Shown here in pieces: positions 23,245 to 55,320 of a DNA stretch of 64,000 bases; position 1 is the stretch's first letter; each line of letters begins with the position of its first letter. The position numbers were made by a program, and so were the translations under genes. The stretch is from a virus (Duplodnaviria > Caudoviricetes). Under the pieces are notes generated by a model. The model was not told the origin of the DNA and ran no database searches. It was given only the letters and a program-made list of their open reading frames with translations. Location: the IMG/VR virus record IMGVR_UViG_3300036784_000146, positions 79,611 to 143,610 of that record, one strand, 5' to 3'.

Positions 23245-23669
23245 TAGGTACTCCTTGGAAAGCGGCGCAGGACATCGTCAACATGGTCCAATCCTCGCAG
23301 GTGGATTCGTAAAATCATCTGCTCTTCGGCGCCGGGGACCGGAATCCGAAAAGTTGCCAACACGCCGTGACGATATACCGGCTCCAAATAACCGAAGTCA
23401 CGCCACAACTCAGAGTGACGCTTCCAGTAGCAAGCCTTGGATGTGCCTCCGTTGCAGGGCACAGGAAGGTTCGCGGCTATCGCGCATTGGTCAGCGCTCA
23501 GTCCGTCGTAGAGAGGGTCACGATTACCCACCCGGGCATGGGCAAGCAGAAGGGCAAAACGCTGGCCGTTTCGGTATCGCTGATTGATCCGGGCCGACTT
23601 CCAGCTAGTCAGCGGATCGTTCCTCCGAGCGGGCCAAGAGTCCTCCGGAAAGAGCGAATGTACGGTCAT
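23244..23669 (-). CDS. Putative winged-HTH DNA-binding protein (ARxxDPxTS family)
   Basis: AAGGAGG RBS; 'ARRNDPLTS' and 'WKRHSEL...GYLE' motifs. Confidence 0.6.
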   Translation of the reverse strand: MTVHSLFPEDSWPARRNDPLTSWKSARINQRYRNGQRFALLLAHARVGNRDPLYDGLSADQCAIAANLPVPCNGGTSKACYWKRHSELWRDFGYLEPVYRHGVLATFRIPVPGAEEQMILRIHLRGLDHVDDVLRRFPRST

Positions 23670-26264: not shown

Positions 26265-27794
26265 ATGGAGTTCACCCCCACAGCAGAGCAGCAGGCGGTC
26301 ATCGATGCCGCACAGACCGGGGCCAACCTGGTCATCCAGGCCGGGGCAGGAACCGGCAAGACCTCAACCCTGCAGATGGTCGCCGAGGCACGCCCGCGCG
26401 TGAGCCTCTACGTGGCCTATAACAAGTCGATCGCCACCGACGCGGCCACCAAGTTCCCCTCGCTGGTGAAGTGCAAGACCTCCCACTCGCTGGCGTTCGG
26501 CGCGGTGGGGCGCAAGTTCAGCCACCGACTCAACAGCGCGCGGCGCCCGTCGTGGGAGCTGGCCAAGGACATGGGTCTGGGCTGGCTGAAGCTGGGCCGT
26601 GACATCCGGGTGGCACCACACCAGCAGGCCCGCATCGCGGGCGACACGGTGCGCCGGTTCTGCTACTCGGCCGACGACGAATTGGGAGCGGCCCACGTCC
26701 CGTTCCAGAACGGCATCGCCGGGCGCAACCACAACGACCTGGTTGCCCGGATCCTGCCGCTGGCCCGCGACTGGTGGAACGACGTCAACAGCATCGATGG
26801 CACGATGCCCTTCGAGCACGATCACTACCTGAAGATGTGGGCCTTGGAGGATCCCGACCTGTTCGTGGACATCGTGTTCCTCGACGAGGCGCAGGACTCC
26901 AACCCGGTGCTGGCCAAGCTGATCGCCGCCCAGGAAGCCCAGCAGATCGTGGTGGGGGACTCCTGCCAGCAGATGTACGCCTGGCGGGGCGCGGTGGATG
27001 CCCTCTCCGGCTGGAAGGACTCCAAGGAGCTGTTCCTCAAGCAGTCCTGGCGGTTCGGGGAGGCCATCGCCGATGAGGCCAACAAGTGGCTGGCCCAGCT
27101 GCCCACTCCGTTGGAGCTGATCGGCAACCCGCACCTGGACTCGACGCTGGACGAGCTGGAAGACCCGGCCGCCATCCTGTGCCGGACCAACGCCGGGGCG
27201 ATGGGCGCCGTGCTGGGATCCATGGAGGCCAACAAGAACGTCTCGCTGGTGGGTGGCGGGGAGCAGCTGGCCCGCCTCGCCAAGGCATGCGCGGACCTGC
27301 GGGCGGGCAAGAAGACCTCCCACCCCGAGCTGTTCGCCTTCGACTCCTGGGACGAGGTGGCCCGCTACGCCAAAGAGGAGGCTTCCGGATCCGACCTGCG
27401 CCCGCTGGTGAACCTGATCGACGAGCACGGCACCGACAAGATCATCGAGGCCACCCAGAAGCTGGTGAGCGAGGCCAACGCCGACGTGGTGGTGTCGACG
27501 GTCCACAAGGCCAAGGGCCGCGAGTGGGACACGGTGGCCGTGGCCGGGGACTTCTTCGAGCCGCGTTCGGTGGAGGGGGCCGACCCGGTTATCGGCGAGT
27601 CCGAGGCGATGGTGGGCTACGTGGCGGTGACCCGGGCCAAGATGGTGCTGGACCGCTCCAACCTGGCCTGGATCGACGACTTCGTCGACCCGCCGGAGGT
27701 CGACCCGGTGGCCGAGGACGACTACGACGAGGGCATCGATCCCCAGGTCCTCGACGAGATCTACGCCCTTCCCTCCGCCGAGAAGGAGGACTGA
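26265..27794 (+). CDS. UvrD/Rep-like SF1 helicase
   Basis: AGAGTGKT, LDEAQD, VGDxxQxxYxWRGA, SWRFG, STVHKAKGREW, YVAVTRA. Confidence 0.93.
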   Translation: MEFTPTAEQQAVIDAAQTGANLVIQAGAGTGKTSTLQMVAEARPRVSLYVAYNKSIATDAATKFPSLVKCKTSHSLAFGAVGRKFSHRLNSARRPSWELAKDMGLGWLKLGRDIRVAPHQQARIAGDTVRRFCYSADDELGAAHVPFQNGIAGRNHNDLVARILPLARDWWNDVNSIDGTMPFEHDHYLKMWALEDPDLFVDIVFLDEAQDSNPVLAKLIAAQEAQQIVVGDSCQQMYAWRGAVDALSGWKDSKELFLKQSWRFGEAIADEANKWLAQLPTPLELIGNPHLDSTLDELEDPAAILCRTNAGAMGAVLGSMEANKNVSLVGGGEQLARLAKACADLRAGKKTSHPELFAFDSWDEVARYAKEEASGSDLRPLVNLIDEHGTDKIIEATQKLVSEANADVVVSTVHKAKGREWDTVAVAGDFFEPRSVEGADPVIGESEAMVGYVAVTRAKMVLDRSNLAWIDDFVDPPEVDPVAEDDYDEGIDPQVLDEIYALPSAEKED

Positions 27795-49915: not shown

Positions 49916-50218
49916 ATGTTCGGCGACGATGGTTCCTTTGAGGTAAGTACCGAGTCGCGCGTGTTGCCGTTGCGCACGGGCGTGGACTATTCGGTGGAGG
50001 ACGAGACCGAGAGGCTGTTGGCCGACGATCGTCGCGAGTTACGCGAGCAGGGGCTCGACGTGGACTACCTCACCACCGACCAGCTGTTGCTACGGTGGTC
50101 ACGTGAGCTGATCGGACCGTACGGGGCGCCGGACCGTGCGATCTCCCACGGCATGTACCGGCGAGCGTTCAACCCCGCGATGGGGCAGCGACCGACCAAC
50201 CTCAAACAGGAGCCCTAG
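49916..50218 (+). CDS. Hypothetical protein
   Basis: 100 aa ORF, coupled to the next gene. Confidence 0.55.
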   Translation: MFGDDGSFEVSTESRVLPLRTGVDYSVEDETERLLADDRRELREQGLDVDYLTTDQLLLRWSRELIGPYGAPDRAISHGMYRRAFNPAMGQRPTNLKQEP

Positions 50219-51009
50219 TGACCGCCGACGTGGGCCAGCAGCAGGTAGTTGCAGCTGGGGGAGAGCCACCCCGCGCCGACACCGACATCGATGCCATGGT
50301 GGCTGCCGAGATCAAGCGGTTGCGGGAAGCGGGTCAGTTAGAGGTACGCACCGAGCACCGCTGCCGGGTGTGCAAAGACGAGCCAACCCGCATGCTGATC
50401 AACAATCTGCTCGCGCGCATGATGAGCTACCGCGACATCTACACGATCATCAACGCTTCAATCAATCCGGTGCGTAAGCAACGCAACGAGCGCCCGATCA
50501 CTCAACGCATCATCGGCCACCACGCCAAAGAGCACTTCGCCATCGACAACCCGGCTTGGGCGATCTTCCGCAACATCGGGGTGCGTCGGGGCCGTCAGAT
50601 GGGCAAGGACTACGAGGACGGCATCGCCGAGACAGTCAGCCATCTGGCCTTCTTGGAAGCAGTGGTGCAGAAGGGCTGGGTGAACCTGATCCAGCCCACG
50701 ACTGAGGTGCCCTACTCGGATGGCCTGAACGCGGCGGTGAAGCTGGCCGAGATCGAAGCCAAGACCGCCGGGGCCCAGCAGCACGCGGAGATGCTGGCTC
50801 AGGTCAACCGGATCATCACGATCTTCAAGGAGAGCGTGCCTCCCGAGGAGTGGCCTGCGATCGTCGCGCGCATCCAGGGCGACGAGCTGCCGCAGTCGGC
50901 CAGCGTGCCAGCCATTGCGCAGCGAGTCATGGTCCGCGCTGCCGACGCCGATGACGAGGAGTTCGACCCGGGCGAGGATAACGACTTCGATGACGAGGAC
51001 GGGGAGTAG
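50218..51009 (+). CDS. Hypothetical CxxC/HTH-like protein with acidic tail (possibly terminase small subunit-like)
   Basis: CRVC...SYRDI...HAKEH; function is inferred only. Confidence 0.5.
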   Translation: MTADVGQQQVVAAGGEPPRADTDIDAMVAAEIKRLREAGQLEVRTEHRCRVCKDEPTRMLINNLLARMMSYRDIYTIINASINPVRKQRNERPITQRIIGHHAKEHFAIDNPAWAIFRNIGVRRGRQMGKDYEDGIAETVSHLAFLEAVVQKGWVNLIQPTTEVPYSDGLNAAVKLAEIEAKTAGAQQHAEMLAQVNRIITIFKESVPPEEWPAIVARIQGDELPQSASVPAIAQRVMVRAADADDEEFDPGEDNDFDDEDGE

Positions 51010-52073
51010 TGGCGTCGAGCCCGCTAGCTCAGGTTGACGCCAGCTCGTTCGACCAGGCTGGTGTTTCGGTGGCCACCGCCACCCGTAGCGCTTCCAACTC
51101 TCGGCTGGGGACCTTCTATGACAACACGACGATGGCGGCGGGGGCATTGGTACACGTGCACCCAATCTCCTCCTCCCAGTTTCTGGCAGCCTTCGCCCGA
51201 CGTTGGACCACCGCCACCCCCTCGCCGACACAAGCGGGCTACTTCAGCGCCCACACCGAAGACCTCACTCCCACGTGGTTCATCCTGGGCGCTTCTGGTG
51301 CTCGCACTCTTGTGGCCTCCTCCCCGGCGATTCCGATCGCCACACCTGGGCTGGGTAGCCCGACGCTTGTGGACGGCACGTCGCTCGCGGACTACGTCTT
51401 CCTGCTGCACTCCACCGCCACCGGCGGACTGATTCAGCACTTCCGGGTGGCCACCGCCGGGCGTGTGGTGCCTGTCGGCGAGGAGGTCATCCCCAACCTG
51501 GTCAGCCAGGGGGTCTCCTTCGACAAGGGCCTGGCGGTGGACAACAACTACATCACCGCGTTCGGCACCGACGCTGACGGCAACGTCTACCGGGCCCGCA
51601 AGCCCTCTGGTCAGATCGGGGGCACCTACGCCCAGAGCGCGACGGCCGCCGTCAGCCAGCTGCCTCTGGTGTGGCAGTACGGCACCGGTAGCGGCTGGGA
51701 CTCCAACCCGGCTCACGGGGCGCCGGAGGCTGGCCTGAACAGCCTGGGCCCGGTGAGCCACGTGCGCTGGCGGCGCACCCACTACCTGTCCACCGTCGCC
51801 AACTCGGGTGGCAACCAGGTGAGCCAGATCTACTCCCGGTACCCGAGCAGGCCCTGGACCAAAGTGGGTGCGCCGATCCCGCTGGGCTCCGGCGCCAACT
51901 ACCTGGGTGGTACCGCGCAACTGCAGTCCAACCTGCTGGCACCTTCGGCCATGATCAACACCCCGGCCAGCGAAACGGCCATCCCGTACGTGACGTCGAC
52001 CAAGGTCCCCTCCGGTGCGTTGAACGCCATCCACACCGCTTGGAATCTGCTGCAGATCCCTCGTCAAACTTAA
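51009..52073 (+). CDS. Hypothetical beta-rich protein (possibly virion-associated)
   Basis: 354 aa, Ser/Thr/Gly-rich. Confidence 0.6.
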   Translation: MASSPLAQVDASSFDQAGVSVATATRSASNSRLGTFYDNTTMAAGALVHVHPISSSQFLAAFARRWTTATPSPTQAGYFSAHTEDLTPTWFILGASGARTLVASSPAIPIATPGLGSPTLVDGTSLADYVFLLHSTATGGLIQHFRVATAGRVVPVGEEVIPNLVSQGVSFDKGLAVDNNYITAFGTDADGNVYRARKPSGQIGGTYAQSATAAVSQLPLVWQYGTGSGWDSNPAHGAPEAGLNSLGPVSHVRWRRTHYLSTVANSGGNQVSQIYSRYPSRPWTKVGAPIPLGSGANYLGGTAQLQSNLLAPSAMINTPASETAIPYVTSTKVPSGALNAIHTAWNLLQIPRQT

Positions 52074-52082
52074 CCCGAGGGG

Positions 52083-52112
52083 TTTACTTTTTTCCTCTAA
52101 TTTTGTTATAGT
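52083..52112 (+). promoter_or_regulatory. SigA-like promoter TTTACT-18 bp-TATAGT; leaderless start at ATG 52119
   Basis: Very AT-rich island; the A of the ATG lies 7 nt after the -10; no SD sequence. Confidence 0.75.
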
Positions 52113-52118
52113 CCCTGC

Positions 52119-52802
52119 ATGACAAACACAGAGAAGAAAAAGGCGGTCCCTCCTCCCAATGAGCCACCGCCTCCGGTAATTTCCATCTCCAAGATCGAAG
52201 CGGGCCGGATCCTCGTCCCCATTCGAGGAACCGCTCCGCTGATCATGAACAACTGGTCGGCCAAGGCCAAGCGCCAGATGCTGCTCAACATGCAGGGCGT
52301 GAAGTTGCCCAAGGAGAATAAGGACCCCGAAGCTGAATACCAGTCGGCGTTCTATCTCCTGGACGAGACCGGGCCCGAAGGCGAGAAGCGTTACGGCTTC
52401 CCGTTGATGGCCTTCAAGGAGGCCACGGTCGGTGCGGCCAGGTTCTACACCCGATCGGTGACCATGGTGGCCTTGCGGCAATTTTTGTTCTTCAAAGGCT
52501 GCTACTCCACCTCGGCCAAGCAGCAGCTGGTGGAGATCGTCGGCACACCTGAGCGGCGGGAAGATCCCGTCACCGTGGGCCGAGGTGGCCGGGATCTGCG
52601 GTACCGTCCGGAGTTCTGGCCCTGGCGAGCCACCTTGGACATCTCCTTCGCCAAGACCAATATCGATCAGGAATCGGTGCTTTCCCTGCTCGATGCCGGA
52701 GGTCTGGGTGTCGGCGTGGGCGAGTGGCGTCCGGAGAAGAAGGGCGTCTTCGGCACCTTTGAGGTGGATCCCGACGAGCCCATCGAGGTGCTCAATGGCT
52801 GA
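52119..52802 (+). CDS. RAMP/Cas7-like RNA-binding protein (candidate Vipr-like effector)
   Basis: N-terminal strand 'VPIRGTAPLIM', 'GFPLMAFKEA' (cf. RAMP IPGSSxKG), thumb-like 'VTVGRGGRDLRYRPEF', C-terminal Gly-rich loop 'AGGLGVGVGEWRPEKKGVFGTFEV'; adjacent to a repeat array. Confidence 0.7.
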   Translation: MTNTEKKKAVPPPNEPPPPVISISKIEAGRILVPIRGTAPLIMNNWSAKAKRQMLLNMQGVKLPKENKDPEAEYQSAFYLLDETGPEGEKRYGFPLMAFKEATVGAARFYTRSVTMVALRQFLFFKGCYSTSAKQQLVEIVGTPERREDPVTVGRGGRDLRYRPEFWPWRATLDISFAKTNIDQESVLSLLDAGGLGVGVGEWRPEKKGVFGTFEVDPDEPIEVLNG

Positions 52803-53229
52803 TCTGCGGTCAGTGTTGGTGGACCATTACGAGCGGTTCGGCAGCTTGAAGGATGAGGACCTTGTCAGGGAGGCCACCGTGGCCTCCCATCCTCTCCACG
52901 ATCGTTTTGAATGGGACGATCAGGTCGCCGGACACCAGTACCGTTGCTGGCAGGCTCGACAGCTGGTTAAGACCGTAAAGCAGTCGTTCTCCAACCACGA
53001 CGGCGAGCGCCGCAGCGTGCGGTTCTGGTTATCCAGCTATGAGGCCGGAAATCCAGAAGTCACGGCCGGGACGTTTGAACCGGCCGAGCAAATAATGGCA
53101 GATCCCATTCGGGCAGAGATCGAGTTGCGGTCATGCAAGCGAGCAATCGCTGACCTACGCCGTCGCTATGAGCATCTGGCCGAGTTCAAAGAGCTGGTGC
53201 AGCGGGGGTTGCTCCAAGAAGAAGGGTAG
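52795..53229 (+). CDS. Array-associated accessory protein (144 aa)
   Basis: ATG 52795 overlaps the end of the RAMP-like gene; 'HPLHDRFEWDD..AG.QYR..QARQL' motif; stop codon is 6 bp before the array. Confidence 0.75.
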   Translation: MADLRSVLVDHYERFGSLKDEDLVREATVASHPLHDRFEWDDQVAGHQYRCWQARQLVKTVKQSFSNHDGERRSVRFWLSSYEAGNPEVTAGTFEPAEQIMADPIRAEIELRSCKRAIADLRRRYEHLAEFKELVQRGLLQEEG

Positions 53230-53235
53230 CCACGA

Positions 53236-54210
53236 GGCAGTCATGGCACGGCTCGGTTCCGCGCGTCGGGGCTCGGTAAGGCGTGGCAGGCACGTTCTGG
53301 CCAGGTGTGGCCCGTCGGGGCATGGCAAGGCAGGCGAGGCCAGGCCCGTCGAGGCCTGGCGCGGTCCGGCTAGGCATGGCAGGCGGGGCAAGGCATGGTG
53401 CGGTCGGGCTAGGCAAGGCTGGGCAAGGCAGGCAAGGTACGGCAAGGCGGGGCGCAGCGCGGCCCGGCGAGGCAGGCTTGGTCCGGCCTGGCGTGGTGAG
53501 GCTTGGCCTGGCGTGGCGCGGTTCGGCAAGGCAGGCTCGGCAGAGCATGGTGCGGTCGGGCTAGGCGTGGCGCGGCTTGGCAGGCGCGGCATATCTTGGC
53601 TGGGTACGGCGGGGCAAGGCTGGGTAAGGCAGGCACGGTATGGTGTGGCCGGTTTTGGCTCGGTTTGGCGAGGCTTGGCAGGCTAGTTAGGCAGGGCATT
53701 GCATGTCAAGGCTAGGCATGTCAAGGCAGGCGCGGCTGGTCCAGGCGAGGTACGGATTGGTACGGCACGGTCCGGCAGGCACGGCGTGGTCAGGCAAGGC
53801 GCGGCTAGGCACGGCAACGCAGGCAGGGCTCGGTGCGGTTGGGCGCGGCTTGGTATGGCAAGGCAGTCGCGGCTGGGCACGGCCAGGCAAGTTCTGGCTC
53901 CGGCTAGGCGTGGCATGGCAGGCTCGGTTGGGCTTGTCCAGGCAGGGCGCGGTGTGGTTAGGCGTGACATGGCAGGCAGGGCAAGGTTCGGCTAGTCAGG
54001 GCCCGGCAAGGTCCGTCAAGGCAGGCATGGCAAGGTCAGGCGGGGTGTGGCCTGGCAAGGCGCGGCTAGGCAGGCACGGCTCTGTTCGGCGCGGCGAGGC
54101 AGGGTTACGCACGGCAAGGCAGGCCAGGCATGGCAGGTTGCGTCAGGGCTAGGCAGGGTTTGTCAAGGCAGGCCAGGCGGGGTTAGGCGCGGCTTGTCGG
54201 GGTAGGGTTC
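53236..54210 (+). ncRNA. GGY-NN pentamer array: 20 units of GGCA + (GGY-NN)8-11, about 179 pentamers; candidate guide-RNA array
   Basis: Parsed by hand. Unit starts: 53236, 53285, 53329, 53378, 53427, 53471, 53530, 53579, 53628, 53677, 53725, 53774, 53818, 53862, 53917, 53971, 54020, 54069, 54118, 54167. The repeat structure is certain; the RNA function is inferred. Confidence 0.8.
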
Positions 54211-54222
54211 GGCTGGCGTGGT

Positions 54223-54270
54223 GGGAAGTTGGGGTGAATGCGGCTACAATCGGATTCACCCCAATTTTCC
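54223..54270 (+). terminator. Stem-loop closing the array
   Basis: TTGGGGTGAAT (54229-54239) pairs perfectly with ATTCACCCCAA (54254-54264), extendable to about 17 bp with G-U pairs. Confidence 0.7.
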
Positions 54271-54294
54271 TACAATGAAGGGAGACACACCACC

Positions 54295-55320
54295 GTGAAA
54301 GTCGCCGAGCTGGCAGAGAATCTAGCCAAGCGCAAGGAGAGCCGTCGGATCGTGCGGTTGGGGGACCTGGCCATCCCTGACGACTGTTCATCGATCACGA
54401 TTCCGGCTTCCGAAGACACTCCGGCCGCCCAGTTTTTGCTCGACGAGAAGACTCTTCGGGTGCTGGCCAAGTTTTTGAAGCTGCCTGCGACCTATCTTGA
54501 AGAATGCCCGCCAGATTTTAGGTCGACGACATTGAGGTACTGGCGCGACCGTAAGGGCCATGTCGATGTCGTGCTCGAAGCCGTCGACGACAACGTGACC
54601 GCCCTCTACAGCCCTGGCTTGATGATGCTGCCGGTCGCGCGGGTCGCGCGCATGATCGAGCGCACTTTCAAGCCAGAGGACGATATCCGCCTGCTGCTGC
54701 GCGATGAGCAGGTGTTTCATGTCGACATCACTTCTGACGATTTCAAGATCGAAATCCCCAATCCTCGTCGCATCCCCGGCCGCCCTGAGGTCGGCGACAT
54801 TACCTGCGGCGGCATCCGCTTTTTGGCGTCCCCCAGCAAGGTCAAGGCGCCCAGCGTGTCGCGGTTCCTTCATCGTTTGGTCTGTACCAACGGGATGGTG
54901 ACCGATGCGGCCGAAGACAAGATCGTGATCAAGGGATTGAGTGTGGCTGAGGTCATCGAGTCGATGGAAGAGGCTGCCGATCGGTTGCTGTCCAACATGG
55001 ACGAGCATCTGGACCGCTACAAGGACACGGCTCTTCTGGCTGTGCCTGGTCATCCTTTGTCCTTCGCCGAACAGCTGGGGCACGAGTTCAATGTTCCGCA
55101 GCGTCAGCTGCATGCCATCCTCGACCGGGTGCGTCAGCTCCCCGAGGAGGGCGCCACCGTTTTTGACGTCGCCCAAGCATTCACTTCGGTCGCCAACGAA
55201 GTGCACAACTACGCCGACCGCACCCGCCTACAGACACTGGGTGGCTCATTGGCCCTGGAAGCCCCCAGAATGATCGAGCGTTGCCACACTTGCCAGACTC
55301 TTCTGGTCGAGCACGGTTGA
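54295..55320 (+). CDS. DUF932-like phage protein
   Basis: 'FLHRLVCTNGMV' motif and C-terminal 'TVFDVAQAFTSVA'; GGAGACACAC start motif. Confidence 0.7.
   Translation: MKVAELAENLAKRKESRRIVRLGDLAIPDDCSSITIPASEDTPAAQFLLDEKTLRVLAKFLKLPATYLEECPPDFRSTTLRYWRDRKGHVDVVLEAVDDNVTALYSPGLMMLPVARVARMIERTFKPEDDIRLLLRDEQVFHVDITSDDFKIEIPNPRRIPGRPEVGDITCGGIRFLASPSKVKAPSVSRFLHRLVCTNGMVTDAAEDKIVIKGLSVAEVIESMEEAADRLLSNMDEHLDRYKDTALLAVPGHPLSFAEQLGHEFNVPQRQLHAILDRVRQLPEEGATVFDVAQAFTSVANEVHNYADRTRLQTLGGSLALEAPRMIERCHTCQTLLVEHG

What the first reader, a model, noticed from the sequence alone, without database searches (positions are those of the whole stretch)
52119..52802. Solo minimal RAMP/Cas7-like protein with no CRISPR array or cas operon
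The protein has RAMP-like landmarks in the right order: a first strand plus 'G.APL', a 'P..AFK.A' helix, a basic thumb-like hairpin (VGRGGRDLRYRP) and a terminal G-loop (GGLGVGVGEWRP...GVFGTFEV). No cas1/2/3/5/6/8 genes and no repeat-spacer array lie in the window. It could represent an ancestral or offshoot branch of class 1 effector backbones. The assignment is by eye only.
Basis: inference. Interest (0 to 1): 0.8.

Follow-up and report, generated by a model that had tools for sequence, protein, structure and literature searches.

The report
Phage Vipr protein of VIPR system
The gene encodes the Vipr protein, a minimal Cas7-like RNA-binding protein, of a VIPR system (a phage-borne, CRISPR-like RNA-guided DNA silencer first described in 2026 preprints), and it sits with its partner gene and a 20-guide RNA array, so it is a real but already described kind of system.

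Summary
A high-confidence model (pLDDT 94.9) matches only CRISPR RAMP backbones: Cmr4 and Csm3 at Z 11.4, then type VII, IV and I Cas7. A family profile also hits the solved SUSP1 Vipr protein (PDB 36pp) over its full length, E 3.8e-13. The residues that hold the guide's GGY motif in SUSP1 are conserved here: thumb R163 and G-loop E202-W203-R204.

The protein is not solo. It heads a 2.2-kb cassette:
- a leaderless-type promoter,
- vipr,
- an 8-nt-overlapping partner gene (vap),
- a ~1-kb GGY-NN pentamer array of about 20 tail-less, 1-nt-overlapping ("staggered") guides,
- a terminator hairpin.

The cassette lies between two genes that are adjacent in the related phage Phrappuccino. Same-strand pentamer arrays flank Vipr relatives in 79/80 viral and 72/80 cellular loci.

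This is the VIPR system of bioRxiv 10.64898/2026.04.26.720920 and .720927, so it is a new member of a known kind. It is not the characterised type II: the vap family differs and the guides have no 3' tails. I found no self-targets and could not confirm any natural target. An earlier lead pointing to a rival regulator gene stayed statistically inconclusive in my test. This scan has already met VIPR systems on other DNA.

The parts
52072..52084 (+). Short GC hairpin plus T-run ending the preceding gene (51009-52073)
   Evidence: Terminator-like site. It marks the left edge of the cassette.
52083..52112 (+). Promoter-like site TTTACT-18-TATAGT with an extended TG. The -10 box ends 6 nt before the vipr ATG and there is no Shine-Dalgarno, so the mRNA is probably leaderless (inference).
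   Evidence: It is the only sigma-70-like site found in 51900-54400; sequence.
52119..52802 (+). vipr: 227-aa minimal RAMP (single RRM core, thumb hairpin, G-loop)
   Evidence: phrog_4652 E 2.5e-36. Profile hit to PDB 36pp SUSP1 Vipr, E 3.8e-13. AF2 pLDDT 94.9. RAMP-only structural matches.
52521..52652 (+). Thumb beta-hairpin (residues 135-178) carrying invariant R163, which aligns with SUSP1 R138
   Evidence: DSSP; HMMER alignments; role of R138.
52698..52754 (+). Glycine-rich loop (residues 194-212) with E202-W203-R204, which align with SUSP1 D177-W178-R179
52795..53229 (+). vap-like partner gene, 144 aa. Its ATG overlaps the vipr stop by 8 nt (ATGGCTGA).
   Evidence: phrog_15946 E 2.7e-25. 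A homolog lies next to vipr in Pipp, ODay and BobaPhett and in 74/80 IMG/VR loci. AF2 pLDDT 93.4. Weak winged-helix matches, Z 4.4-5.5.
53245..54215 (+). vrRNA array: about 190 GGY-NN pentamers in about 20 in-register blocks. Most blocks are 49 nt (ten units). Each shares 1 nt with the next at GGCA|GGC.
   Evidence: It lies on the + strand only and is unique in the 143.6-kb record.
54229..54268 (+). Perfect 11-bp inverted repeat (TTGGGGTGAAT / ATTCACCCCAA, 14-nt loop) followed by TTTT. Likely terminator of the vipr-vap-array transcript.
   Evidence: Sequence. RNA fold -46.2 kcal/mol, z -5.35, with 0 of 200 shuffles folding as well.
51009..52073 (+). Left flanking core gene (354 aa), homolog of Phrappuccino gp133
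   Evidence: tblastn 37% identity, E 1e-55.
54295..55320 (+). Right flanking core gene (GTG start after GGAGACACAC), homolog of Phrappuccino gp134. gp133 and gp134 are adjacent in Phrappuccino, so 52074-54294 is an inserted cassette.
   Evidence: tblastn 43% identity, E 3e-93; annotation.

Best explanation
ORF 52119-52802 encodes the Vipr protein of a phage-borne VIPR (Viral Interference Programmable Repeat) system. The cassette is transcribed from the promoter at 52083-52112 as vipr, vap and a ~1-kb array. The array RNA yields about 20 guides (vrRNAs), each of roughly ten GGY-NN pentamers. By analogy with the solved SUSP1 complex, one Vipr protomer binds each pentamer, and the protomers form a helical filament. 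Thumb R163 and G-loop E202/W203/R204 sequester the GGY bases, and the NN dinucleotides are presented for pairing. The filament reads double-stranded DNA with one base skipped after every two (NNx). It blocks transcription of the bound gene, most likely in a competing phage or prophage. Shown here: homology, fold, conserved contact residues, operon anatomy, and the near-universal linkage of protein and array. Inferred from the published systems: filament formation, the 1-nt-skip code, silencing, and the biological role.
For: Sequence:
- phmmer hit to PDB 36pp 'SUSP1 Vipr protein', E 9.3e-5.
- Profile of 110 relatives against the same chain over its full length, E 3.8e-13.
- BLASTP to the identical Vipr of phage Alf5, E 2e-10.

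Fold:
- AF2 pLDDT 94.9.
- The Foldseek top hits are all Cas7-family RAMPs.
- VIA-align gives Cmr4 and Csm3 at Z 11.4, and about 40 RAMPs before the first non-RAMP.

Contact residues:
- R163 aligns with R138, and E202-W203-R204 with D177-W178-R179. The preprint shows these residues hold G1 and G2 of the guide.
- They are invariant or nearly so in the family.

Guide array:
- GGY-NN pentamers lie on the vipr strand only, and the array is unique in 143.6 kb.
- The same linkage is seen in 3/3 GenBank actinophages, 79/80 IMG/VR loci and 72/80 prokaryote-genome loci. Arrays on the opposite strand appear in only 8/80 and 2/80.
- The 1-nt-overlap architecture matches the preprint's 'staggered vrRNA arrays'.

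Other support:
- A vap partner is syntenic in 74/80 loci.
- No guide matches the phage's own 143.6-kb record above shuffled controls, as reported for other VIPRs.
Against: No RNA or binding data exist for this locus or for any staggered array; the preprint verified other array types only. N44 stands where SUSP1 has H17. The vap family shows no similarity to SUSP1-type vap1. The guides lack the 3' tail/pseudoknot of type II vrRNAs, so processing and capping must differ. I could not identify a natural target.
Confidence: 0.95

Rival explanations
1. A stray or degenerate CRISPR-Cas backbone subunit (Cas7/Csm3/Cmr4/Csf2) left over from a decayed class 1 or type IV locus, with no present guide-RNA function.
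For: The best structural matches are Cmr4, Csm3, type VII, type IV and type I Cas7.
Against: Sequence identity to these is 8-16% only, and no Pfam, NCBIfam or PADLOC Cas model hits the protein. There is no Cas1 and no repeat-spacer array in the record. The protein is a sequence-level homolog of Vipr. It is under strong conservation in thousands of clusters, always next to a pentamer array.
Confidence: 0.02
2. A VIPR-like ribonucleoprotein that regulates the phage's own genes (a temporal switch) rather than attacking rivals.
For: The cassette sits among early or regulatory genes, next to a putative DNA-binding regulator and, in relatives, a sigma factor. Homologs in temperate actinophages lie just after the repressor/Cro-like genes.
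Against: No guide matches the phage's own 143.6-kb record better than shuffled guides do: best 16/20, against controls up to 16-18. The published systems also show no self-targets.
Confidence: 0.03
3. The pentamer tract is coding or structural DNA (a low-complexity protein, microsatellite or recombination hotspot), and its position next to the RAMP-like gene is a coincidence.
For: ORFs of 90-170 aa are open in several frames on both strands across 53155-54205. GenBank annotators called CDSs over the equivalent arrays (Pipp gene 43, BobaPhett gene 51).
Against: The period is 5, not 3, and register slips occur every ~49 nt. ORFs are open in many frames only because GGCNN lacks stop codons. Strand-specific linkage to vipr holds in 151 of 160 independent loci across phyla and G+C contents.
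Confidence: 0.01

Closest known systems
Type II VIPR of Escherichia phage SUSP1 and other Felixounavirus phages (e.g. Alf5), and of the Pseudomonas fulva prophage (bioRxiv 10.64898/2026.04.26.720920, .720927, 2026.10.15.759431; PDB 36pp)
   Same: - The Vipr protein is homologous: profile E 3.8e-13 over the full length, and 36% identity over the C-terminal 61 aa.
- The GGY-binding residues are conserved.
- The gene order is vipr, then a ~145-aa vap, then the array on the same strand.
- Guides are GGY-NN pentamers, about 10-16 units each.
- The system is phage-borne.
   Different: - The vap here is a different family: hhalign probability 0.2% against Alf5 vap1.
- Type II vrRNAs are separate units, each followed by a ~55-nt structured tail. 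Here about 20 tail-less guides abut and share one nucleotide at GGCA|GG.
- The repeats here are GGC-rich rather than GGT-rich.
- The host is an actinobacterium, not an enterobacterium.
'Staggered vrRNA arrays' of the VIPR classification (Fig. S18 of 10.64898/2026.04.26.720920)
   Same: Individual guides derive from positions that overlap by 1 nt, so the end of one guide marks the start of the next. This is the 5k-1 periodicity seen here and at 348 junctions in related loci.
   Different: The figure and its type label are not available as text, so I cannot say which of types I or III-VII this locus belongs to. The preprint did not verify this array class by RNA sequencing.
CRISPR class 1 backbone RAMPs (Csm3, Cmr4, Cas7, Csf2, type VII Cas7)
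   Same: Single RRM core, helix 1, a thumb hairpin and a C-terminal G-loop. Z 8-11.4 over about 150 residues.
   Different: Sequence identity is 8-16%. There is no second domain or insertions, no cas partners and no repeat-spacer array. In the homologous SUSP1 Vipr the binding period is 5 nt with three bases sequestered, versus the 6-nt period with one flipped base in class 1 CRISPR effectors (not measured for this protein).

Membership tests
VIPR system (Vipr + vrRNA + vap) | Vipr protein: a minimal single-RRM RAMP homologous to the founding Vipr family | tested here: met
   Profile against PDB 36pp SUSP1 Vipr, E 3.8e-13, profile positions 23-201 against chain residues 4-190 of 202. RAMP-only structural neighbours.
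VIPR system (Vipr + vrRNA + vap) | Residues that sequester the GGY motif (SUSP1 H17, R138, D177, W178, R179) | tested here: met
   R163, E202, W203 and R204 align with R138, D177, W178 and R179. The position aligned with H17 is N44 here, and H in most relatives.
VIPR system (Vipr + vrRNA + vap) | Adjacent same-strand tandem YNNGG (GGY-NN) repeats, at least four units | tested here: met
   About 190 units at 53245-54215, + strand only, unique in the record.
VIPR system (Vipr + vrRNA + vap) | Conserved GGY with hypervariable NN | tested here: met
   The unit lists show GGC/GGT kept while the NN vary. Occasional GTC/AGC units match the internal degeneracy described.
VIPR system (Vipr + vrRNA + vap) | Minimal locus with a vipr-accessory (vap) gene and no cas genes or CRISPR array | tested here: met
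   A coupled 144-aa gene, syntenic in 74/80 relatives. No Cas1 and no CRISPR-like repeats.
VIPR system (Vipr + vrRNA + vap) | vrRNAs expressed, bound by Vipr, and able to silence DNA that matches the 1-nt-skip code | not testable with these tools
   This needs sRNA-seq, pull-down and reporter assays.
VIPR system (Vipr + vrRNA + vap) | Natural targets in competing mobile elements, and no self-targets | tested here: inconclusive
   No self-target. Exact-pattern scans of IMG/VR, GTDB genomes and metagenomes gave only chance-like hits. The match to rival regulator genes is suggestive but not significant.
Type II VIPR (SUSP1 / P. fulva clade) | vap1-family accessory gene | tested here: not met
   hhalign of the 72-sequence vap profile against Alf5 vap1: probability 0.2%.
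Type II VIPR (SUSP1 / P. fulva clade) | Discrete vrRNAs, each ending in a conserved structured 3' tail | tested here: not met
   In Alf5 each repeat run is followed by a non-repeat tail of about 55 nt. Here blocks abut with a 1-nt overlap, and only one hairpin closes the whole array.
CRISPR-Cas class 1 effector (Cas7/Csm3/Cmr4) | Association with cas genes and a repeat-spacer array, and a match to a Cas family model | tested here: not met
   No Pfam, NCBIfam or PADLOC hit. No Cas1 and no CRISPR array in the record.

The most novel reading that the evidence does not exclude
Tail-less staggered arrays such as this one may define a mechanistically distinct VIPR subtype. In it, guide boundaries would be set by the conserved GGCA|GG junction. 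Two routes are possible. The -1 register slip may stop and restart Vipr filament assembly on one long transcript. Alternatively, the clade-specific Vap (a possible winged-helix fold plus a helical hairpin) or a host RNase may cut there. Either would let one ~1-kb RNA arm about 20 silencing complexes without the 3' pseudoknot cap that type II needs.
Probability: 0.35. Interest if true: 0.5.

Novelty: new member of a known kind. Interest (0 to 1): 0.3.

Why it matters
The kind is new to the field (preprints of April-October 2026) but already described, so this locus does not change the picture. Its value is as a clean, well-delimited example from a large actinobacteriophage:
- It is a 2.2-kb cassette inserted between conserved neighbours.
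- It has an unusually long 20-guide staggered array and a vap family different from the studied one.
- The staggered array class has not been verified experimentally. This locus and its many relatives, including cultured Gordonia and Mycobacterium phages that grow on laboratory strains, offer a tractable way to learn how tail-less guides are made.
- GenBank actinophage records annotate these arrays as hypothetical proteins, which is worth correcting.

Tried and rejected
1. Pfam, NCBIfam and PADLOC gave nothing for Vipr or Vap. PDB sequence searches for Vap were empty or insignificant.
2. Megablast of the region against GenBank phages gave no match.
3. Self-targeting: none above shuffled controls at the nucleotide level or at the decoded-peptide level.
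4. Guides against 86 related or fetched loci: nothing above controls.
5. Exact 1-nt-skip patterns in IMG/VR:
   - g06, g18 and g12 gave no hits.
   - g04 gave three near-identical 43% G+C contigs, i.e. one event.
   - g13 gave one hit with the skip base at codon position 1.
   - The g07 core gave 15 hits, 13 of them in one ~130-aa family ('KKATYRAILEQF') on 46-56% G+C contigs, one labelled a giant-virus MAG. I counted these as one event, within chance expectation.
6. g06 in 596 Gb of prokaryote genomes gave no hit.
7. Lead from earlier finding e1-5748553 (guides spell a regulator gene of rivals). I took the regulator to be 50218-51009 and compared it with six GenBank homologs.
   - g16 matches RedWattleHog gene 86 at 16/22, in frame, at 'KITYSSIWNHAK'.
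   - g07 matches Catera and Skog at 'AAYRRILE', 14/20 and 13/20.
   - Permutation gives P 0.018 and 0.032 for only two of 18 guides, and P 0.29 overall.
   - Five closer relatives carry the phage's own version of the core.
   - A metagenome scan for the g16 core returned 19 chance hits in low-G+C DNA.
8. WhiB as the target was considered. The phage's own WhiB lies at record position ~23.4 kb, and no guide decodes to the WhiB core.
9. The search for related loci with the regulator protein found no relatives in IMG/VR. Alignments A1 and A4 were too divergent for that tool.

Full report
**The observation.** Window 52119-52802 (+) is an intact ATG-to-TGA frame of 227 aa. The protein belongs to PHROG 4652 (unknown function, E 2.5e-36). 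It has no Pfam, NCBIfam or PADLOC match. The family is large:
- 2,684 clusters in the word-indexed search;
- 2,980 clusters at 50% identity with E<=1e-3 in the exhaustive search.

In 110 representatives that are 32-54% identical to the query, R163, G195, G199, R204, G209 and G212 are invariant.

**What the protein is.** Four lines of evidence agree.
- A plain phmmer search of PDB sequences gave one hit, 36pp 'SUSP1 Vipr protein', at E 9.3e-5 over the C-terminal 60 residues.
- A profile of the 110 relatives hit the same chain over its full length, E 3.8e-13, with nothing else below E 0.3.
- AlphaFold2 with that alignment gave pLDDT 94.9 and pTM 0.87.
- Foldseek against the PDB returned only CRISPR RAMP backbones: Csm3 6xn3_F at E 5.9e-6, then type VII Cas7, Cmr4, type I-B Cas7 and Cas7-11. 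An independent all-against-representatives alignment gave Cmr4 and Csm3 at Z 11.4, and about 40 RAMPs before the first unrelated fold.

**What is known about Vipr.** The hit led to three 2026 preprints.
- They describe VIPR systems as a phage-encoded minimal RAMP (Vipr), an accessory gene (vap) and vrRNAs made of alternating GGY/NN pentamers.
- One Vipr protomer binds each repeat in a helical filament. The thumb and G-loop sequester GGY and present NN.
- The target is double-stranded DNA read with one base skipped after each pair, and the outcome is transcriptional silencing of competing mobile elements.
- The SUSP1 residues that hold the guide are H17, R138 (thumb) and D177/W178/R179 (G-loop). 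In the HMMER alignments they correspond here to N44, R163 and E202/W203/R204.

**The surroundings.** The protein is not solo.
- A promoter-like site (TTTACT-18-TATAGT, with TG) ends 6 nt before the ATG, with no ribosome-binding site between. This suggests a leaderless transcript (inference).
- A 144-aa gene starts 8 nt before the vipr stop (52795-53229).
- From about 53245 to 54215 the + strand is a run of about 190 GGY-NN pentamers.
- The register slips by -1 about every 49 nt. This divides the tract into about 20 blocks, mostly of ten units. Each ends GGCA and shares its last nucleotide with the first G of the next block.
- This is the 'staggered vrRNA array' of the preprint's Fig. S18.
- A perfect 11-bp hairpin followed by a T-run closes the array (54229-54268; z -5.35).
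- The next gene starts at GTG 54295, behind the phage's usual GGAGACACAC motif.
- The array is on the vipr strand only and is unique in the whole 143,610-bp record.

**The record.** It is a virus record rated 96% complete by CheckV. It carries tail, endolysin, DnaB, primase, DnaE-type polymerase, UvsX-like and glycosyltransferase genes. Its nearest GenBank relative is Mycobacterium phage Phrappuccino, at about 49% DnaE identity. In Phrappuccino the homologs of the two flanking genes (gp133 and gp134) are adjacent, so 52074-54294 is an inserted cassette.

**Is the linkage general?** Yes.
- In Gordonia phages Pipp and ODay and in Mycobacterium phage BobaPhett, the Vipr homolog has a same-strand pentamer array beside it and a Vap homolog nearby. 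The order varies between these phages.
- 79 of 80 IMG/VR loci with a Vipr relative have a same-strand array. The one exception ends at the gene. 74 of the 80 have a Vap homolog directly downstream.
- 72 of 80 loci from prokaryote genomes have a same-strand array, against 2 with one on the opposite strand. These range from Actinomycetota at 50-57% identity to Alphaproteobacteria, Clostridia and Planctomycetota at 31-43%.
- Across related loci, 348 block junctions share one nucleotide. Their consensus is GGC-A|GG-Y, with A at 94%. Block periods are always 5k-1, with the mode at 49-54.
- Array size ranges from 2 to more than 60 blocks, so 20 is large but not extreme.

**Comparison with the characterised type II.** I located the SUSP1-type locus in Escherichia phage Alf5, whose Vipr is identical over the 56 residues the PDB alignment had printed.
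- The gene order is the same: vipr, a 146-aa vap1, then the array.
- The two Viprs align only over the C-terminal 61 residues (36% identity, E 2e-10).
- The Vap profile of this clade shows no similarity to vap1 (probability 0.2%).
- Each Alf5 vrRNA is a separate GGT-NN run followed by a ~55-nt structured tail. Here there are no tails.
- The Vap model (pLDDT 93.4) has an N-terminal ~100 residues with weak matches, almost all to winged-helix domains (Z 4.4-5.5), and a C-terminal helical hairpin. This fits the preprint's 'predicted DNA-binding' vaps but is not strong evidence.

The locus is therefore a VIPR system of a type other than II. The preprint's type table is not available as text, so I cannot name the type.

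**Targets.**
- No guide matches the phage's own record better than shuffled guides do, as published for other VIPRs.
- Exact 1-nt-skip patterns for seven guides gave no hits or chance-like hits in IMG/VR, in 596 Gb of genomes and in the metagenome collection.
- An earlier finding of this scan (e1-5748553) states that at least four guides spell the core of a regulator gene in rival relatives. I tested this with the putative DNA-binding gene at 50218-51009 and six GenBank homologs.
  - g16 matches RedWattleHog gene 86 at 16 of 22 positions, in codon register, over the most conserved motif.
  - g07 matches the 'AAYRRILE' motif of Catera and Skog at 14 and 13 of 20 positions.
  - The phage's own copy reads differently at both sites.
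  - Against shuffled guides, only two of 18 guides reach P<0.05, and the summed score is not significant (P 0.29).
  - Five closer relatives carry the phage's own version of the core.
- I regard the lead as plausible but unconfirmed by my data.

**Verdict.** The system is a member of the VIPR kind published in 2026, and this scan has met it repeatedly on other DNA. It is therefore a new member of a known kind and of moderate-to-low interest. The open point is how tail-less staggered guides are delimited.

Noticed in passing
L001 7620-7835 (Gordonia phage Pipp gene 43); L002 6647-6874 (Mycobacterium phage BobaPhett gene 51): GenBank annotates 'hypothetical protein' CDSs over what are GGY-NN guide arrays beside the vipr homologs. 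These are probably mis-called ORFs.
   Followed up: partly
L003 5742-8697 (Gordonia phage ODay genes 16-21): In ODay the vipr-array-vap cassette sits with two divergent HTH genes inside the tail operon, between the tail assembly chaperone and the tape measure gene. This is a clear moron-like insertion.
   Followed up: no
window 53382-53431 and 53534-53583: Guides g04 and g07 share four consecutive units (AT-GC-CG-TA; an exact ~22-nt block). This suggests guide duplication and divergence, or two guides aimed at variants of one site.
   Followed up: partly
window 53245-54215: About half of the guides end ...AA-AG (GGCAA GGCAG or near variants) and all end GGCAG. The last one or two units therefore look like a constant 3' element rather than target-derived sequence.
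   Followed up: partly
L089-L102 (IMG/VR contigs, 46-56% G+C): A ~130-aa protein family with the invariant motif 'KKATYRAILEQF' matches 18 of 20 coded positions of guide g07 in codon register. I judged it a chance match to an abundant family, but it was not examined further.
   Followed up: partly
window 50218-51009: A 263-aa gene with a CxxC motif. It is conserved in large actinophages: Phrappuccino gp132, Catera gp211, RedWattleHog gene 86 annotated 'HTH DNA binding', and I3 'DNA binding protein'. It usually lies after a phage sigma factor. It is a possible late-gene regulator and the candidate target family of some guides in rival phages.
   Followed up: partly
G000:C1 about 23300-23650 (outside the window): The phage has a single WhiB-like gene with a divergent core (CAHCPVIEQCRAHAM...GIWGG).
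   Followed up: no
window 54280-54297 and record positions 27388, 110177, 141272: A recurrent start-associated motif, (A)AGGAGACACACACCATG, is the only 18-mer present three times in the record.
   Followed up: no
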